DNA of 12,954 nucleotides from a virus. Lineage: Duplodnaviria; Heunggongvirae; Uroviricota; Caudoviricetes. The DNA lies in IMG/VR virus record IMGVR_UViG_648276648_000008; one strand, 5' to 3'. Below the pieces are notes generated by a model. That model was given only the letters and a program-made list of their open reading frames with translations. It had not been told where the DNA came from and did no database searches. This document shows positions 8,140 to 12,954 of this stretch, in pieces (position 1 is the first letter of the stretch; each line of letters begins with the position of its first letter). The position numbers were made by a program, and so were the translations under genes.

Positions 8140-9569
8140 GTAAAACAACACCGACTAAAGACAGTATTCGTGCAGAGTTTGAAGAGCTTGTCGAGAAAGA
8201 TTCATTCTGGTCGAAGTTTGTCGGCTCTCAATTTGTCTCGATGCTGACATTGTTTATTACCCAGATTGTCTACAGGTGCTTTCAGTATGCCGATGCGGCG
8301 CTGGCTGAAGGCTTTATATCGACCGCGACGCGGCGTTCCTCTATCCTGGCAGCGGCAGAAACGAATAGTTACGTTGGTACCAAGCCAACACCGTCATCGG
8401 GGATGATTGAGATCACCGCCACAAGTGAAGATGCTCCAGCGGTAATCCCCAAAAACATGCCTTTAATATCTGACGACCAGTACCCTTACATAACTATGGA
8501 TGTATGCAGGTTGGTTGACGGCACCGGTACGGTAGAAGTGGCACAGTTGGAAATCCAGGAGGTGACATATACCGTTACGGCAGCCAAAGAATTTCTGGAA
8601 GTCGTGTTATCAAAGGCTCTCACTGCTGTCTGCTATAAGCTGGAAGTATTCGTGACGACCGATGGTAAGACCACGCAGTGGTCTTCCAGCACTATGTTCC
8701 GGTTAGCTGGTAGTAAAAGCCAGGTCTACGTTGAGTTTTATAAACCATCCGAGCAGTTGGGGGTTCGATTCGGTGATGGGCTAATTGGGCAAATACCGCC
8801 AGAAGGCTCGACCATTACACTTAAGGTATGGTGCACCAACGGAGATATAACCTTGGTTGCTGGCCAAAATCTGACGCCTGTCGATTCTGCGGCTAATTTA
8901 GCTAATTTGATTTCAGTTAAGACAACGACACCCATAACCGCAGGTACCGATGCCGAAACAACGGAGATCACACGTAATCGTGCACAATATTACCTTGCCT
9001 ATGATGATCAGGTCGTATGGGGCGGGGACTATACGTATTTTCTGGTGCGTAACATCCCGGGACTGTCCTGGGTAAAGGCATGGGGCGAAGGCCAGCAAGA
9101 GAAATTAGATGGTGCTTATAATGTTCGGAATATCAATAAGATATTTATTTCAGGATGGCATCCAAACAAAAGCCAGTCAGAGCTTGAAGAAATGATCCTG
9201 GCTGCCTTTAAGAAGGTGCCGAATGAGTTGAACAAGAAATTCTCGTATAAAGAGGTCAGAAAACTACCCTTTAAGATCACCATCACCGGGCGGATATCGG
9301 CAAGCCTGACCATTGAGAACGTGACTGATGAGCTGAAGTCGGCACTGGAAACAAAATTTGGGCGTGACTCAACTTTCTTTGATCCGAACCGTGTTGGCAA
9401 GTACATCCTAATCAAGAAAAAAGACGTTTGGGCATTTATCGAAACGCTGGGTTATTTCCGCGACTTTTATCTGGAATTTGTCGAGTGGAATGAGTCCAAC
9501 GGCTTTTACGATTTCGTTTATCTGGATACAGAAAACTCCACCTTTAATATTTCGTATGAGGAGGAGTGA
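8136..9569 (+). CDS. bplA: Baseplate J-like protein (T4 gp6 / Mu gp47 / P2 gpJ family; P1 BplA-like)
   Basis: 477-aa ORF; ATG overlaps upstream stop (ATGA at 8136..8139). N-terminal region SIRAEFEELVEKDSFWSKFVGSQFVSMLTLF...AALAEGFISTATRRSSILAAAETNSYVGTKPTPSSGMIEITA resembles the start of Baseplate_J proteins. Follows a gp25-like gene as in contractile-tail baseplate operons. Confidence 0.75.
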   Translation: MSKTTPTKDSIRAEFEELVEKDSFWSKFVGSQFVSMLTLFITQIVYRCFQYADAALAEGFISTATRRSSILAAAETNSYVGTKPTPSSGMIEITATSEDAPAVIPKNMPLISDDQYPYITMDVCRLVDGTGTVEVAQLEIQEVTYTVTAAKEFLEVVLSKALTAVCYKLEVFVTTDGKTTQWSSSTMFRLAGSKSQVYVEFYKPSEQLGVRFGDGLIGQIPPEGSTITLKVWCTNGDITLVAGQNLTPVDSAANLANLISVKTTTPITAGTDAETTEITRNRAQYYLAYDDQVVWGGDYTYFLVRNIPGLSWVKAWGEGQQEKLDGAYNVRNINKIFISGWHPNKSQSELEEMILAAFKKVPNELNKKFSYKEVRKLPFKITITGRISASLTIENVTDELKSALETKFGRDSTFFDPNRVGKYILIKKKDVWAFIETLGYFRDFYLEFVEWNESNGFYDFVYLDTENSTFNISYEEE

Positions 9570-10405
9570 TGCAGCGTTCCTGGTTTAATAACCGGCTTAC
9601 ATCAGCTAAGCAAAAGTCATTGCTCTATAAATCATTGGCTGATTTGGTTCAGTCAATGATGGATACCTTTGTTGACCCATGGTTGGAGCGAATTACCAAC
9701 CGGAAGTCTATTTTTTCCATGAGCAAGGAGGATCTGGAGACCAGGACAAATGAACTTGGCCAGTTCTTTACTATCAGAACGTCGAACTCATCTTCCGTTC
9801 CGATGTTGTTACAACAGCGTCTTGATGAGATTCACTTTAAGGGGACTGAACGCCCTATAAACCAGACAATTTACCGCGAATTTAACGGTATTTCTGTTTT
9901 ATGGGATCCGATATATGCACCGGTGGACCTTGAGCGTCATCCCTATGGCACGGTTCTAATACCTGAAAGCACACTGGAGACTACCGGCGGCACATTCGGC
10001 GAGATGTTTCTGACTTCCAGAGGGATGATCAGTATTCCCATAAACGACCTGGCCCGGACAATGGGGATTACTGGCACGATAGATCAGTCCGCAATTACAG
10101 AAGAAATTCTCAGAAAGTTTAATCAGTTCGTAAAGCCTCTACTGCCACTGCATATAGTGTTTGATGGGCTTACGCTCTATTTGTCGGTTGTTGTAAATGA
10201 ACACGCCGACATGATCACTTTGAACGAGATTTCTGATACCGAAAAAGCGTACTGCTGGTTTGAAACTTCGGATACAACTTCGCTTACTGGAGTTACGTCG
10301 ATTAGCGCTCCGATCACTGCAACGCCGGGCGGCACTATTGTGAAAGCAACGCCTACGTTTGATCGCACCCGCGCAGATGATTTGCTGCTGGATAGTGATG
10401 CCTGA
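9569..10405 (+). CDS. Baseplate / tail protein (P2 gpI / Mu gp48 position; P1 gene 16 position by synteny)
   Basis: ATG at 9569..9571 overlaps upstream TGA (9567..9569), preceded by GAGGAGG (9558..9564). The ORF track's 9566 start is GTG. About 278 aa. Assigned by position after the J-like gene; no motif recognised. Confidence 0.7.
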   Translation: MQRSWFNNRLTSAKQKSLLYKSLADLVQSMMDTFVDPWLERITNRKSIFSMSKEDLETRTNELGQFFTIRTSNSSSVPMLLQQRLDEIHFKGTERPINQTIYREFNGISVLWDPIYAPVDLERHPYGTVLIPESTLETTGGTFGEMFLTSRGMISIPINDLARTMGITGTIDQSAITEEILRKFNQFVKPLLPLHIVFDGLTLYLSVVVNEHADMITLNEISDTEKAYCWFETSDTTSLTGVTSISAPITATPGGTIVKATPTFDRTRADDLLLDSDA

Positions 10406-10408
10406 TAA

Positions 10409-10433
10409 TCACCCCGTCCGCAGGGCGGGGTGA
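10409..10433 (+). terminator. GC-rich stem-loop (TCACCCCGTCC-GCA-GGGCGGGGTGA) 4 bp after the stop; possible terminator or mRNA stabiliser
   Basis: 11-bp stem with one G-U pair and a 3-nt loop, read from the sequence. Downstream is only moderately T-rich (TTACTTATCTT), so at best a weak or partial intrinsic terminator. Confidence 0.3.
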
Positions 10434-10483
10434 CAAGTTACTTATCTTACAATGAGGCTTCACAACATTGATTAGGGAAAATC

Positions 10484-10918
10484 ATGTCTGACGTCTCAAC
10501 AAACCTCTATAAGAGTCAGTTGTTGGACTATTACTATCAGCGGCGCGCTGAATCGTCCATTAACAAAGGCTCTCGATTTTTAATCAGCAAGGCCGTTTTC
10601 GGTACCAGTTCGCTGGTTACTAAGAAAGGAGATGGCACTTATGAGATTGGAGAACTGCCAAAGGCTTTCGAACTGGCAGAACTGACCAGTCAATTTTGCA
10701 CCATCAACCTCGTCCCAACCTACTCAGGCGGGATAATTACTGTCCGAATGGACCTTGATCAAAGCCAGTTGCAGGAAGGGAAAAACTACCCATTCAACAC
10801 TCTGGTTGTTCTGGATAACGAGAACAAGCCAATCGCCATTATTTGTGTCCAGGAAGACTCGCTGTATGTGGGCAAAACATATACCGCAGTTATGGCCATA
10901 AACACGACTACAGCATAA
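10484..10918 (+). CDS. Small tail-fibre-associated protein (P1 gene R position by synteny)
   Basis: 144-aa ORF, AGGGA RBS upstream, stop TAA at 10916..10918 followed 11 bp later by the fibre gene. Function inferred from position only. Confidence 0.65.
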   Translation: MSDVSTNLYKSQLLDYYYQRRAESSINKGSRFLISKAVFGTSSLVTKKGDGTYEIGELPKAFELAELTSQFCTINLVPTYSGGIITVRMDLDQSQLQEGKNYPFNTLVVLDNENKPIAIICVQEDSLYVGKTYTAVMAINTTTA

Positions 10919-10929
10919 GGATATGCTTG

Positions 10930-12954
10930 ATGAATGACGTTACAGTTGTTACATCGGTTACTTACCCATCATCCGAGTCGTTGGCTCTGGTGGCCGATGT
11001 GCAATACCACGAACCATATCTGTCAGCCGCGCTAAACCGAAAATTCAGGGGGATTGTTGACCCGGGATTTTATGCCGGTTTCTTACCTAAGCCTGGCGGT
11101 GGGATGAACCTGTTAATTACCTCAGTGGATGGTGATAAAACCGCAGGCGCGGCGTCGGTGGATATTGGTGAATTTTACCAGGTAACTATTCAGCAACGTA
11201 AGGATATTTCTCTTGCACTTAGTGCAGGCAAGAAATATGCAATTGTGCTGAAGGGAAGATACCTCCTTGGAGAAGATACCTACCAGGTGAATACCGCGTC
11301 ACATATTCATGCGGCTGAATTTGTTGCCAGAACCTATACCGATTCATATCAGTTAGGAGATGGGGAGCTGCTTGTTTGTACGGTGAATATCCCTGCTAGT
11401 GTATCTGCCATTACCCAGGAGATGATTGATACATCCGAGCGTATCAACCGCTCGATCGGCATTGATATTTCAGACTCTGTAACCAGTACCAGAAGTGATG
11501 TTGCTGCAAGTTCGCTGGCAGTTAAAAAAGCCTACGATCTGGCGAAAAGCAAGTATACGGCACAGGATGCAAGCACAACGCAAAAGGGATTAGTTCAGCT
11601 CAGTAGCGCAACTAACAGCGACAGCGAAACAATGGCGGCTACCCCTAAAGCTGTTAAGTCTATAAAAGATCTGGCTGATACCAAAGCGCCAATAGAAAGC
11701 CCGAGTCTGACAGGAACGCCAACCGCGCCGACGGCAGCGCAAGGTACAAATAGCACGCAGATCGCAAATACAGCCTTTGTTAAGGCAGCTATAACGGCAC
11801 TTATCAACGGTGCACCTGGCACACTGGATACGCTTAAAGAAATAGCTGCTGCGATCAATAACGACCCGAATTTCAGCACAACTATCAACAATGCTCTGGC
11901 TCTTAAAGCTCCTTTAGCAAGTCCTGCATTAACGGGAATACCTACTGCGCCTACCGCTGCACAGGGTACGAATAACACGCAGATCGCAAATACAGCCTTT
12001 GTTAAGGCAGCTATAACTGCACTTATCAACGGTGCGCCTGGCACACTGGATACGCTTAAAGAAATAGCTGCTGCGATCAATAACGACCCGAATTACAGCA
12101 CAACTATCAACAATGCCTTGGCTCTCAAAGCGCCTTTGGCAAGCCCTGCATTAACGGGTGTCCCTACTGCGCCTACCGCTGCACAGGGTACGAATAACAC
12201 GCAGATTGCTACGACCGCTTATGTAAGAGCTGCCATATCCGCATTGGTTGGTTCATCACCAGAAGCTCTTGATACCCTGAATGAGCTTGCCGCAGCACTT
12301 GGCAATGACCCGAACTTTGCGACAACAATGACAAATGCGCTGGCAGGCAAACAGCCTCTGGATGCAACTTTAACCGCTCTCGCTGCCCTTGCGACTGGTG
12401 CAAACAAACTGCCTTATTTCACTGGTAAGGATACGGTAGCTCAGACTGATTTAACGTCAGTCGGTCGCGATATTCTGGCTAAAACAAGCACACTGGCCGT
12501 TATCCAATACCTTGGTTTAAGAGAACTCGGTACCAGCGGTGAAAAGATCCCCCTGTTGAGCACGGCTAACACATGGAGTGCGCGCCAGACTTTCAACGGC
12601 GGGATCACCGGGGCACTGACAGGGAACGCCGACACCGCGACGAAATTGAAAACAGCCATAAACATTAATGGCGTCAGGTTCGATGGTTCTGGTGACATTA
12701 ATATCAATACTCTGGTATCGCGCGGTCGCGTAACGGCCTTGGAGGCGAATGCACAGGGAACATCTGGGATTCAGCTGTATGAGGCATACAACAATGGCTA
12801 CCCTTCCCCCTATGGCAATGTGCTTCACCTTAAAGGTGCCACCGCTGCTGGCGAAGGTGAGTTATTCATTGGCTGGAGTGGCACGAGCGGTGCCCATGCG
12901 CCCGTACATATCCGTTCGCGGCGGGATACTGATTCTGCCAACTGGTCTGAATGG
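10930..12954 (+). CDS. S: Tail fibre protein, N-terminal >=675 codons (P1 S / Mu S / P2 H / lambda Stf family); continues past window end
   Basis: AAGGA RBS 8 nt before ATG 10930; frame open to the window end, checked by hand translation. Hallmark fibre blocks: TQKGLVQLSSATNSDSETMAATPKAVK, PSLTGTPTAPTAAQGTNSTQIANTAFV, ALDTLNELAAALGNDPNFATTMTNALAGKQP, LPYFTGKDT...VGRDILAK. Absent from the ORF track because there is no stop in the window. Confidence 0.9.
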   Translation, partial: MNDVTVVTSVTYPSSESLALVADVQYHEPYLSAALNRKFRGIVDPGFYAGFLPKPGGGMNLLITSVDGDKTAGAASVDIGEFYQVTIQQRKDISLALSAGKKYAIVLKGRYLLGEDTYQVNTASHIHAAEFVARTYTDSYQLGDGELLVCTVNIPASVSAITQEMIDTSERINRSIGIDISDSVTSTRSDVAASSLAVKKAYDLAKSKYTAQDASTTQKGLVQLSSATNSDSETMAATPKAVKSIKDLADTKAPIESPSLTGTPTAPTAAQGTNSTQIANTAFVKAAITALINGAPGTLDTLKEIAAAINNDPNFSTTINNALALKAPLASPALTGIPTAPTAAQGTNNTQIANTAFVKAAITALINGAPGTLDTLKEIAAAINNDPNYSTTINNALALKAPLASPALTGVPTAPTAAQGTNNTQIATTAYVRAAISALVGSSPEALDTLNELAAALGNDPNFATTMTNALAGKQPLDATLTALAALATGANKLPYFTGKDTVAQTDLTSVGRDILAKTSTLAVIQYLGLRELGTSGEKIPLLSTANTWSARQTFNGGITGALTGNADTATKLKTAININGVRFDGSGDININTLVSRGRVTALEANAQGTSGIQLYEAYNNGYPSPYGNVLHLKGATAAGEGELFIGWSGTSGAHAPVHIRSRRDTDSANWSEW
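11701..12366 (+). repeat. Three in-frame tandem copies of a 222-bp (74-codon) unit within the tail-fibre gene; copies 1 and 2 near-identical, copy 3 diverged
   Basis: Unit starts at 11701, 11923 and 12145. Anchor ATCGCAAATACAGCCTTTGTTAAGGCAGCTATA at 11761 recurs at 11983, and copy 3 has the diverged equivalent (ATTGCTACGACCGCTTATGTAAGAGCT) from 12205. Each unit encodes P(S/A)LTG.PTAPTAAQGTN.TQIA.TAF(V)...NDPN(F/Y)..T..NALA.K.PL. Confidence 0.85.
12500..12525. promoter_or_regulatory. Candidate DNA-invertase crossover site (cix/gix/hix-like): TTATCCAATACC-TT-GGTTTAAGAGAA
   Basis: 26 bp with two imperfect 12-bp inverted half-sites (8 of 12 symmetric) around a 2-bp core, with the ACC..GGTTT core-proximal pattern seen in Gin/Hin/Cin sites as I recall them. 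Lies in the fibre gene just after the conserved VGRDILAK block, where Mu and P1 fibres switch from constant to invertible variable part. Confidence 0.55.

What the first reader, a model, noticed from the sequence alone, without database searches (positions are those of the whole stretch)
11701..12366. Three tandem 222-bp in-frame repeats in the tail-fibre shaft, two nearly identical
Seen: exact 222-bp periodicity with long identical stretches between copies 1 and 2 and a diverged copy 3. Inference: near-identical tandem units allow expansion or contraction of fibre length by unequal recombination or slippage, and short-read assemblies may collapse or inflate this region. It also produces the misleading antisense ORF 11595..12080.
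Basis: seen in the sequence. Interest (0 to 1): 0.45.

Follow-up and report, generated by a model that had tools for sequence, protein, structure and literature searches.

The report
Extra repeat in P1 tail-fibre gene
The window carries the long-tail-fibre gene S of a P1-like phage-plasmid, and the three 222-bp in-frame repeats are the "repeated element b" annotated in phage P1 in 1992, here with one extra hybrid copy made by out-of-register recombination; it is a real but ordinary copy-number variant.

Summary
Copies 1 and 2 are 88% identical in DNA and 92-95% in protein, depending on register. Copy 3 is 59-69% identical to them in DNA.

The gene is S, the long tail fibre of a P1-like phage-plasmid. 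The array lies in its constant part (Sc), about 150 nt upstream of the Cin inversion site cixR. P1 GenBank records already annotate 222-bp "repeated elements b1 and b2" at this position, so P1 has two units and this window has three.

The middle unit is a hybrid: b2-type 5' end, b1-type 3' end. The array matches one two-copy allele up to 11984 and another, read 222 nt out of register, from 11976 on. The two overlap in the 9-nt CACGCAGAT, which is the signature of an unequal crossover.

Relatives carry 1, 2, 3, 4 or 9 units. At least three expansions were independent, and some are perfect recent duplicates.

The array is not an assembly artefact: it recurs in many independent records, and no exact repeat exceeds 58 nt. 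The antisense ORF is a by-product of the repeat. An effect of the extra unit on fibre length or host range is inferred, not shown. Low novelty.

The parts
10435..10453 (+). Late promoter LPs (-22 box and -10) of the R-S-U tail-fibre operon
   Evidence: Window 10429-10489 is identical to P1 L003 1000-1060, which carries the annotated LPs at 1006-1024.
10484..10918 (+). Gene R (144 aa), tail-fibre structural or assembly protein
   Evidence: ORF list; phrog_2032 E=1e-84; same position as P1 R.
10930..12954 (+). Gene S, long tail fibre, first 675 codons (runs off the window end; 1046 aa in identical alleles)
   Evidence: Translation; phrog_454 E=0; 95.9% nt identity to P1 S with one 222-nt gap; 100% identity to the E. 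albertii plasmid NZ_CP030784.2 S gene, 1046 aa.
11518..11685 (+). Repeated elements a0 (11518-11553) and a1 (11554-11685) of Sc; the Pfam Phage_fiber_2 region
   Evidence: Identical to the P1 a0/a1 annotated in M81956 and AF234173; PF03406 hit at aa 215-254.
11686..11907 (+). Unit 1 of the 222-bp array, b1 type
   Evidence: 213/222 identical to P1 b1; 0 differences from unit 1 of the two-copy allele L030.
11908..12129 (+). Unit 2, the extra unit: hybrid of b2 type (nt 1-77) and b1 type (nt 69-222)
   Evidence: Segment-wise identity to P1 b1/b2. nt 1-74 are identical to b2 of L015, L016, L018, L023, L024, L025 and L030. nt 75-222 differ at 2 sites from b1 of P1 and L031.
11976..11984 (+). Recombination joint: 9-nt microhomology CACGCAGAT where the b2-type sequence switches to b1-type
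   Evidence: The window is identical to L030 over 11563-11984. From 11976 on it matches L031 read in the -222 register, with 2 mismatches up to 12489. This is the longest exact in-register match between b1 and b2, and the same joint is found in an independent allele, L086.
12130..12351 (+). Unit 3, b2 type
   Evidence: 202/222 identical to P1 b2; 0 differences from unit 2 of the two-copy allele L031.
12503..12522 (.). cixR, the Cin recombinase site; crossover at 12512/12513, the end of constant part Sc and start of the invertible C segment (Sv, 12513-12954)
   Evidence: The window sequence TTATCCAATACCTTGGTTTAAGAGAA is identical to P1 cixR as annotated in AF234173.
11595..12080 (-). Antisense ORF (161 aa, TTG start), judged spurious
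   Evidence: Its translation is itself a hydrophobic repeat. It is bounded by a TAA created by the Tyr codon of unit 2. It is not annotated in the 534-feature P1 record. It lies in the antisense frame that shares wobble positions with the sense frame.

Best explanation
The array is the 'repeated element b' of the constant part (Sc) of gene S, the long-tail-fibre gene of a P1-like (Punavirus) phage-plasmid. Each 222-bp unit encodes a 74-aa module: about 22 Pro/Thr/Gly-rich residues (APxxSPxLTGxPTAPTAxxGTN) followed by a helix-prone half (...ALDTLxEIAAAIxNDPNF...).

P1 has two diverged units, b1 and b2. This allele has three because an out-of-register recombination joined b2 of one molecule to b1 of another at the 9-nt microhomology CACGCAGAT. 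That gave b1 - (b2 5'/b1 3' hybrid) - b2.

Once the hybrid exists, units 1 and 2 share 96% identity over about 150 nt. Ordinary homologous recombination can then add or remove further units; 4-copy and 1-copy relatives exist.

At the protein level the extra unit inserts one more 74-aa module into the fibre, upstream of the Cin-invertible receptor-binding end. Both alternative fibres (S and S') therefore receive it. The most likely consequence is a slightly longer or differently jointed fibre.

Shown: identity of the gene, the prior annotation, the hybrid structure and joint, copy-number polymorphism, and recurrence of the event. Inferred: the recombination pathway, the direction of change in this lineage (2 to 3), and any effect on fibre length or host range.
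For: Gene and element identity:
- PHROG and Pfam hits for pmgC, tub, pmgB, sit, baseplate genes, R and S.
- 96% nt identity to P1 S, except for a 222-nt gap.
- LPs promoter, a0/a1 elements and cixR identical to P1.

Prior annotation:
- M81956 and AF234173 carry 'repeated element b1' and 'b2', 222 bp each, at the same place.

Hybrid unit and joint:
-.

Copy number in relatives:
- 85 loci: 1 unit in 3, 2 units in 69, 3 units in 7, 4 units in 4, 9 units in 1.
- Top 120 P1-type protein clusters: 86 with two units, 33 with three, 1 with four.
- Complete E. coli genomes: 535 of 5426 hit. In an evenly spaced sample of about 39 records spanning the array, counted by hand from match spans, about 32 have two units, 5 have three, 1 has four and 1 has one.

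Independent events:
- L086/P0034 is a perfect hybrid in another allele with the same joint.
- L007 has a breakpoint near unit nt 111-120.
- L005 and L009 have two 100% identical middle units.
- P0001 is a 4-copy derivative of the window type.
- L004 and L087 have single b1-5'/b2-3' hybrid units.

Selection on the sense frame:
- 19 synonymous against 4-6 non-synonymous differences between units 1 and 2.

The module is a common fibre building block:
- 43,649 representative proteins match at E<=1e-3.
- There are up to 11 full units per protein, and the modal spacing is exactly 74 aa.
Against: There is no structural evidence for what a unit looks like or how much length it adds. The AF2 monomer model had pLDDT 32, and the only solved relatives match half-units weakly or in unresolved regions.

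The direction of change in this lineage is not proven. L031's b1 could equally be a c1 x c2 deletion product of a three-copy ancestor.

Relative to its closest flank relative, L031, the window needs two template switches, or one unequal crossover plus a later in-register crossover upstream.

Nine nt of identity is far below what RecA-type recombination normally needs, so the first step must be a rare homeologous or microhomology event, or a phage-recombinase event. The pathway is unknown.

No phenotype data exist for 2- versus 3-unit fibres.
Confidence: 0.88

Rival explanations
1. Three units is the older state in this lineage. Two-unit alleles such as L031 and P1 arose from it by homologous deletion between units 1 and 2, so the window shows the ancestor rather than an expansion.
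For: L031, whose 2-kb left flank differs from the window at only 3 sites, has a b1 equal to c1 (nt 1-110) plus c2 (nt 111-222) with 2 extra differences. That is exactly what a c1 x c2 deletion would give. P1 b1 is likewise closer to c2 than to c1 in its 3' part, 2 differences against 8.
Against: The hybrid unit itself still requires an earlier b2 x b1 exchange, so two units must be ancestral at some depth. Two-unit arrays dominate all samples. The 222-nt stretch made of the c1 3' part plus the c2 5' part is identical to a different allele class, L015/L030, whereas the window's left flank is L031-like and much less like L030 (3 versus 40 differences in 2 kb). That points to import, not ancestry.
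Confidence: 0.15
2. The third copy is an assembly artefact: a two-copy locus inflated by a repeat-confused assembler.
For: Tandem repeats of 222 bp can confuse short-read assemblers. The provenance of the window is unknown.
Against: The longest exact repeat is 58 nt, and no k-mer of 59 nt or longer is repeated. The middle unit has a unique chimeric sequence.

The identical array occurs in several independent records:
- A complete E. albertii plasmid (100% identity).
- An IMG/VR contig (L006).
- E. coli ZYB62 plasmid (99.9%).
- Phage phi456 (99.9%).
- Protein clusters seen on 63 and 22 contigs.
Confidence: 0.02
3. The array is a programmed, high-frequency variation device, comparable to a contingency locus, that switches fibre length within a phage population and complements Cin inversion.
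For: It sits 150 nt from the Cin switch. Copy number varies in nature, and perfect duplicates exist in some alleles.
Against: The units are long and diverged (88% and 59-67% identity), which does not suit slippage. The same three-unit allele is stably inherited across many isolates from Escherichia and Salmonella. No dedicated recombinase site or enzyme is associated with the array. Two units is the overwhelmingly common state.
Confidence: 0.04
4. The antisense ORF 11595-12080 encodes a real small hydrophobic protein overlapping S.
For: It is a 161-codon open frame. Substitutions are not strongly non-synonymous in that frame: 81 synonymous against 47 non-synonymous.
Against: That frame shares wobble positions with S, so the substitution test has little power, and S still scores better at 95/34.

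The ORF's length depends on the duplication and on a Phe/Tyr polymorphism. The Tyr codon gives an antisense TAA, and P1 b1 has Tyr, which truncates the ORF there.

It starts with TTG, its product is a repeat of Ala/Val/Leu-rich sequence, and it is not annotated in the exhaustive P1 record.
Confidence: 0.03

Closest known systems
Repeated elements b1/b2 in the constant part (Sc) of bacteriophage P1 gene S (GenBank M81956; carried over into the P1 genome records AF234172/AF234173). From memory, the source is Sandmeier, Iida and Arber, J Bacteriol 1992; the paper could not be opened here.
   Same: Same gene, same position (after a0/a1, before cixR), same 222-bp unit length and same frame. Unit 1 is 96% identical to P1 b1 and unit 3 is 91% identical to P1 b2.
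   Different: P1 has two units. This allele has a third, hybrid unit (b2 5' / b1 3') between them.
Conserved tail-fibre segments shared by P2 H, Mu S, lambda Stf, T4 gp37 and the p15B/e14 fibres, taken as evidence of horizontal exchange of fibre modules. This is recalled from Haggard-Ljungquist et al. 1992 and Sandmeier et al. 1992/1994 and was not re-read here.
   Same: The b2-type unit (…SPALTGxPTAPTAxQGTNNTQIATTAYV…ALDTLNELAAALGNDPNFATTMTNALAGK) is a widespread module. It matches 43,649 representative proteins, often in tandem at exactly 74-aa spacing. Many 30-50-kb IMG/VR prophage contigs carry two units.
   Different: Those comparisons concern sharing of motifs between unrelated phages. 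This finding concerns copy-number change within one gene lineage.
Pfam PF03406 Phage_fiber_2 ('phage tail fibre repeat')
   Same: It occurs in the same protein and is also a short fibre repeat.
   Different: It matches the a0/a1 region (aa 215-254), not the 74-aa b unit. No Pfam or NCBIfam model covers the b unit. The only above-threshold Pfam hits on the isolated array are spurious (MtrD, Acyl-CoA_ox_N).
Solved fibres with weak sequence matches to half a unit: PDB 9d93 'tail collar fibers gp4' (C-terminal half, E=2e-11), cyanophage A4 gp24 in 9k09 (N-terminal half, E=1e-3) and phage 80alpha FibU in 6v8i (E=3e-3)
   Same: The helix-prone motif ALVDSAPxxLDTLxELAxAL…DPNF and the motif SPxLTGxP…IATTAxV are shared.
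   Different: Only half-units match. The FibU region is not resolved in the map (PMC7048315). The A4 fibre is a three-domain trimer with no tandem array (PMC12002296). No solved structure of a full unit or array was found.

Membership tests
P1-like (Punavirus) phage-plasmid tail-fibre operon R-S-U with Cin-invertible C segment | Gene order pmgC-tub-pmgB-sit-baseplate genes-R-S and high nucleotide identity to P1 | tested here: met
   PHROG hits for PmgC, PmgB, the tube protein, the Sit-like SLT protein, baseplate genes, R and S; 95.9% nt identity to P1 over S; hits are mostly non-mobilizable plasmids of about 85-130 kb from Escherichia and Salmonella.
P1-like (Punavirus) phage-plasmid tail-fibre operon R-S-U with Cin-invertible C segment | Late promoter LPs upstream of R, and a cixR site at the Sc/Sv boundary | tested here: met
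   Both sequences are identical to the annotated P1 features. cin and cixL lie outside the window and were not seen.
P1 Sc 'repeated element b' | 222-bp in-frame unit directly after element a1, homologous to P1 b1/b2 | tested here: met
   Units start at 11686, immediately after a1 (which is identical to P1). They are 213/222 and 202/222 identical to P1 b1 and b2.
P1 Sc 'repeated element b' | Two units (b1, b2), as in the P1 reference | tested here: not met
   There are three units here. The HMM count gives P1 2, window 3 and relatives 1-4. This is an allelic difference, not a reason to exclude membership.
Pfam PF03406 Phage_fiber_2 | The b unit matches the family HMM above the gathering score | tested here: not met
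   PF03406 matches aa 215-254 (the a region) only. The isolated array gives no PF03406 hit.
Contingency locus / slipped-strand phase variation | Short (1-9 nt), perfectly identical repeat units whose number changes the frame or promoter spacing | tested here: not met
   The unit is 222 nt, always in frame, and 59-88% identical between units.
Trimeric fibre shaft module | Units stack along the three-fold axis of the fibre, each adding a fixed length | tested here: inconclusive
   The AF2 monomer model had pLDDT 32. No solved full-unit homologue was found. P1 long tail fibres are not modelled in the available cryo-EM work.

The most novel reading that the evidence does not exclude
The number of b modules is under selection as a length or flexibility adjuster for the P1-type long tail fibre. 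According to a 2025 preprint, that fibre is the virion's only contact with the host and sets its stand-off distance. The 9-nt CACGCAGAT core would then act as a recurrent joint at which co-resident P1-like plasmids create new lengths and also re-assort the N-terminal (baseplate-side) and C-terminal (receptor-side) halves of S. Three- and four-unit alleles would then track hosts with thicker surface layers rather than being neutral variants.
Probability: 0.15. Interest if true: 0.4.

Novelty: already known. Interest (0 to 1): 0.15.

Why it matters
There are three modest practical points.

First, for annotation and typing of P1-like phage-plasmids, which occur in about 10% of complete E. coli genomes: S alleles differ by whole 74-aa modules. 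Length differences of 74, 148 or more aa are real alleles, not errors. Alleles with perfect 222-230-nt duplicates do need long reads.

Second, for engineering P1 tail fibres for transduction or delivery: the b array is a natural, tolerated site where modules can be added or removed upstream of the invertible receptor-binding part.

Third, it is a clean textbook-style example of unequal crossover, with both parental allele types and the 9-nt joint still identifiable.

It does not open a new biological question.

Tried and rejected
- **AF2 monomer prediction of S residues 235-547** with a 20-row alignment of near-identical sequences. Mean pLDDT was 31.9, so the model was unusable and no fold search was run on it. 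Only the crude secondary-structure pattern was noted: about 22 coil residues, then three helices per unit.
- **Original papers.** Neither Sandmeier et al. 1992 nor Lobocka et al. 2004 is held in the library. The prior description therefore rests on the GenBank feature tables.
- **Source of PDB 9d93.** The Bas63 paper turned out not to be its source and was irrelevant. The accession search found no virology paper for 9d93.
- **80alpha FibU.** The matching region lies beyond residue 123 and is not resolved.
- **Synonymous/non-synonymous test on the antisense ORF.** It has little power because that frame shares wobble positions with S.
- **Literature search for copy-number variation of tail-fibre repeats.** It found nothing.
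- **Naive position-by-position comparison of the whole window with L002.** It is meaningless outside S because of indels. Only the S gene identity is used.
- **Considered and rejected:** a diversity-generating or slippage mechanism (units too long and too diverged) and an assembly artefact.
Full report
**1. Observation**

Tandem Repeats Finder reports a 222-nt period at 11725-12206 with 92% matches, no indels and score 831. The repeat finder reports three copies spaced 222/222 at 11683-12348.

The ORF that contains them starts at ATG 10930 and runs off the window end, with 675 codons visible. Every proposed register is in frame.

- Copies 1 and 2 are 88% identical in DNA and 95% in protein, with 19 synonymous and 4 non-synonymous codon differences.
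- Copy 3 is 59-67% identical to them in DNA and 68-69% in protein.

Identity at lag 222 is 0.9-1.0 inside the array and 0.2-0.3 elsewhere.

**2. What the gene is**

PHROG and Pfam searches identify, in order: PmgC-like and PmgB-like proteins, a tube protein, a 1132-aa SLT-domain protein (P1 Sit), baseplate proteins, a 144-aa tail-fibre protein (P1 R), and then a tail-fibre protein at E=0.

megablast gives 95.9% identity to P1 gene S over the whole 2025 nt, but the match spans only 1803 nt of P1, exactly 222 nt fewer. The S region is 100% identical to a complete Escherichia albertii plasmid. It is 90-97% identical to hundreds of mostly non-mobilizable plasmids of about 85-130 kb from Escherichia, Salmonella, Shigella and Klebsiella.

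The late promoter LPs and the Cin site cixR are identical to P1. This places:
- LPs at 10435-10453,
- cixR at 12503-12522,
- the Sc/Sv boundary at 12512/12513.

The array therefore lies in the constant part of S, about 150 nt upstream of the invertible C segment. Both alternative fibres would carry it.

**3. It is already annotated in P1**

GenBank M81956 and the P1 genome record AF234173 annotate, within Sc, 'repeated element a0', 'a1', 'b1' (222 bp) and 'b2' (222 bp). In window coordinates:
- a0 = 11518-11553 and a1 = 11554-11685, both identical to P1.
- The b units are 11686-11907, 11908-12129 and 12130-12351.

Unit 1 is 213/222 identical to P1 b1, and unit 3 is 202/222 identical to P1 b2. 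An HMM built from the three units finds two units in P1 and three in the window.

**4. Origin of the extra unit**

Unit 2 is b2-like over its first ~77 nt and b1-like from nt 69 on. Among 85 related loci fetched from IMG/VR and the annotated collections:
- Unit 1 is identical to unit 1 of the two-copy allele L030.
- The first 74 nt of unit 2 are identical to the b2 of the L015/L030 class.
- The remainder of unit 2 differs at two sites from the b1 of L031 and P1.
- Unit 3 is identical to the b2 of L031.

Read continuously, the window is identical to L030 from 11563 to 11984. From 11976 onward it matches L031 shifted by one unit, with two mismatches up to 12489. The two tracts overlap in CACGCAGAT at 11976-11984. 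That 9-mer is the longest exact in-register match between b1 and b2.

This is the structure expected from an unequal crossover b2 x b1 between two distinguishable P1-like alleles.

Upstream of 11796 the window is again closest to L031 (3 differences in 2 kb). So either a second, in-register exchange occurred, or the whole event was a patch-type exchange.

The opposite direction cannot be excluded for this lineage: a three-unit ancestor from which L031 derives by c1 x c2 deletion. But the hybrid unit itself presupposes a two-unit ancestor.

**5. Copy number elsewhere**

| Sample | Copy-number counts |
|---|---|
| 85 related loci | 1 unit: 3; 2 units: 69; 3 units: 7; 4 units: 4; 9 units: 1 |
| 120 best P1-type protein clusters | 2 units: 86; 3 units: 33; 4 units: 1 |
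| Complete E. coli genomes (535 of 5426 hit), evenly spaced sample of ~39 records spanning the array, counted by hand from match spans | about 32 with two, 5 with three, 1 with four, 1 with one |

The architecture follows a rule. The first unit is b1-type, the last is b2-type, and the middle units are b2-5'/b1-3' hybrids. Single units are the reciprocal b1-5'/b2-3' hybrids.

At least three expansions are independent:
- The window type.
- L086/P0034, in a different allele. Its unit 2 equals its own unit 3 over nt 1-77 and its own unit 1 over nt 70-222, with no other difference. It uses the same CACGCAGAT joint and has a 230-nt exact repeat.
- L007, with a breakpoint near nt 111-120.

In addition, L005 and L009 carry two 100% identical middle units, and P0001 is a four-unit derivative of the window type.

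The two single-unit P1-type alleles examined sit in disrupted S genes: L004 has a stop at codon 58, and L087 is annotated partial.

**6. Artefact?**

No. Within the array no k-mer of 59 nt or longer is repeated, and the hybrid unit is unique in sequence. The same array is present in:
- independent complete plasmids,
- an isolated phage, phi456,
- an IMG/VR contig,
- protein clusters seen on 63 and 22 contigs.

**7. The protein module**

A profile of the unit matches 43,649 of 1.84 billion representative proteins at E<=1e-3, and 13,177 at E<=1e-10. Among the best 149, proteins carry 0-11 full units, and the commonest spacing is exactly 74 aa. The N-terminal ~38 residues also occur alone in arrays of 10-23 copies.

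No Pfam or NCBIfam model covers the unit. PF03406 matches the neighbouring a elements, and the only above-threshold Pfam hits on the isolated array (MtrD, Acyl-CoA_ox_N) are spurious.

Solved structures match only half-units:
- 9d93 gp4 collar fibre, C-terminal half, E=2e-11.
- Cyanophage A4 gp24, N-terminal half, E=1e-3.
- 80alpha FibU, in a region not resolved in the map.

An AF2 monomer model was unusable at pLDDT 32. Its secondary structure suggests about 22 coil residues followed by three helices per unit.

A 2025 preprint on the P1 tail-baseplate did not model the long tail fibres. It describes them as kinked, as the virion's only host contact, and as holding it about 530 Å from the cell. 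An extra 74-aa module could therefore plausibly alter reach or flexibility. That is inference only.

**8. Antisense ORF 11595-12080**

- Its translation is a duplicated Ala/Val/Leu-rich sequence.
- Its upstream limit is a TAA generated by the Tyr codon (NDPNY) of unit 2. P1 b1 has that Tyr, so the frame is cut shorter there.
- It is the antisense frame that shares third-codon positions with S. This explains why it is open, and why a synonymous/non-synonymous comparison barely discriminates: 95/34 for S against 81/47.
- It is not annotated in the 534-feature P1 record.

**9. Verdict**

This is a real feature, correctly read by the first stage. It is a known element of a classic phage, present here as a common three-unit allele. 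The added value is the exact reconstruction of the recombination joint and the survey of copy number. Interest is low (0.15). Novelty: already known.

Noticed in passing
window 11686-12351; proteins P0001, P0034: The isolated three-unit array scores above Pfam's gathering thresholds for two unrelated families, MtrD (28.5 against 25 bits) and Acyl-CoA_ox_N (26.7 against 25). The precomputed Pfam lists of the 3- and 4-unit proteins carry these labels. They are repeat-summed false positives.
   Followed up: partly
window 11686-12351 (unit profile A1): The 74-aa unit matches 43,649 representative proteins at E<=1e-3, yet no Pfam-A or NCBIfam model covers it. Its N-terminal ~38 residues also occur alone in arrays of 10-23 copies, in proteins of up to 6556 aa.
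   Followed up: partly
L040 2989-4998 (IMG/VR UViG_3300027796_000310): A 1054-aa fibre ORF carries nine consecutive units that are 60-96% identical in DNA, with one 12-nt insertion between units 3 and 4. This is the largest array seen in DNA.
   Followed up: partly
L005 2690-3133; L009 1758-2201; L086 927-1592: Some relatives have perfect, evidently very recent duplications. L005 and L009 each have two 100% identical 222-nt units, and L086 has a 230-nt exact repeat. These alleles could be mis-assembled from short reads.
   Followed up: partly
L004 1501-1677 and L087 868-1994: The only two single-unit P1-type alleles inspected lie in disrupted S genes (a stop at codon 58; annotated partial). 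This may hint that one unit is not enough for a working P1 fibre, or it may simply reflect decay in defective prophages.
   Followed up: no
window 10930-12954 versus 1-10929; L002: The S gene is 100% identical to E. albertii plasmid NZ_CP030784.2, but upstream genes differ. For example, the Sit-like ORF is 3399 nt here and 3393 nt there. Right of the array, different relatives are closest than to its left. This is typical tail-fibre mosaicism, with boundaries at or near the array and cixR.
   Followed up: partly
window 1916-1949 and 4889-4906: There are two short tandem repeats elsewhere in the window: 15 nt x 2.4 copies inside the 179-aa ORF at 1599-2138, and a perfect 9 nt x 2 (CGTGCTGAA) inside the Sit-like gene.
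   Followed up: no
window 11255-11288: A 17-nt imperfect direct repeat (GAAGATACCTCCTTGGA / GAAGATACCTACCAGGT) lies in the N-terminal part of S. It is probably chance.
   Followed up: no
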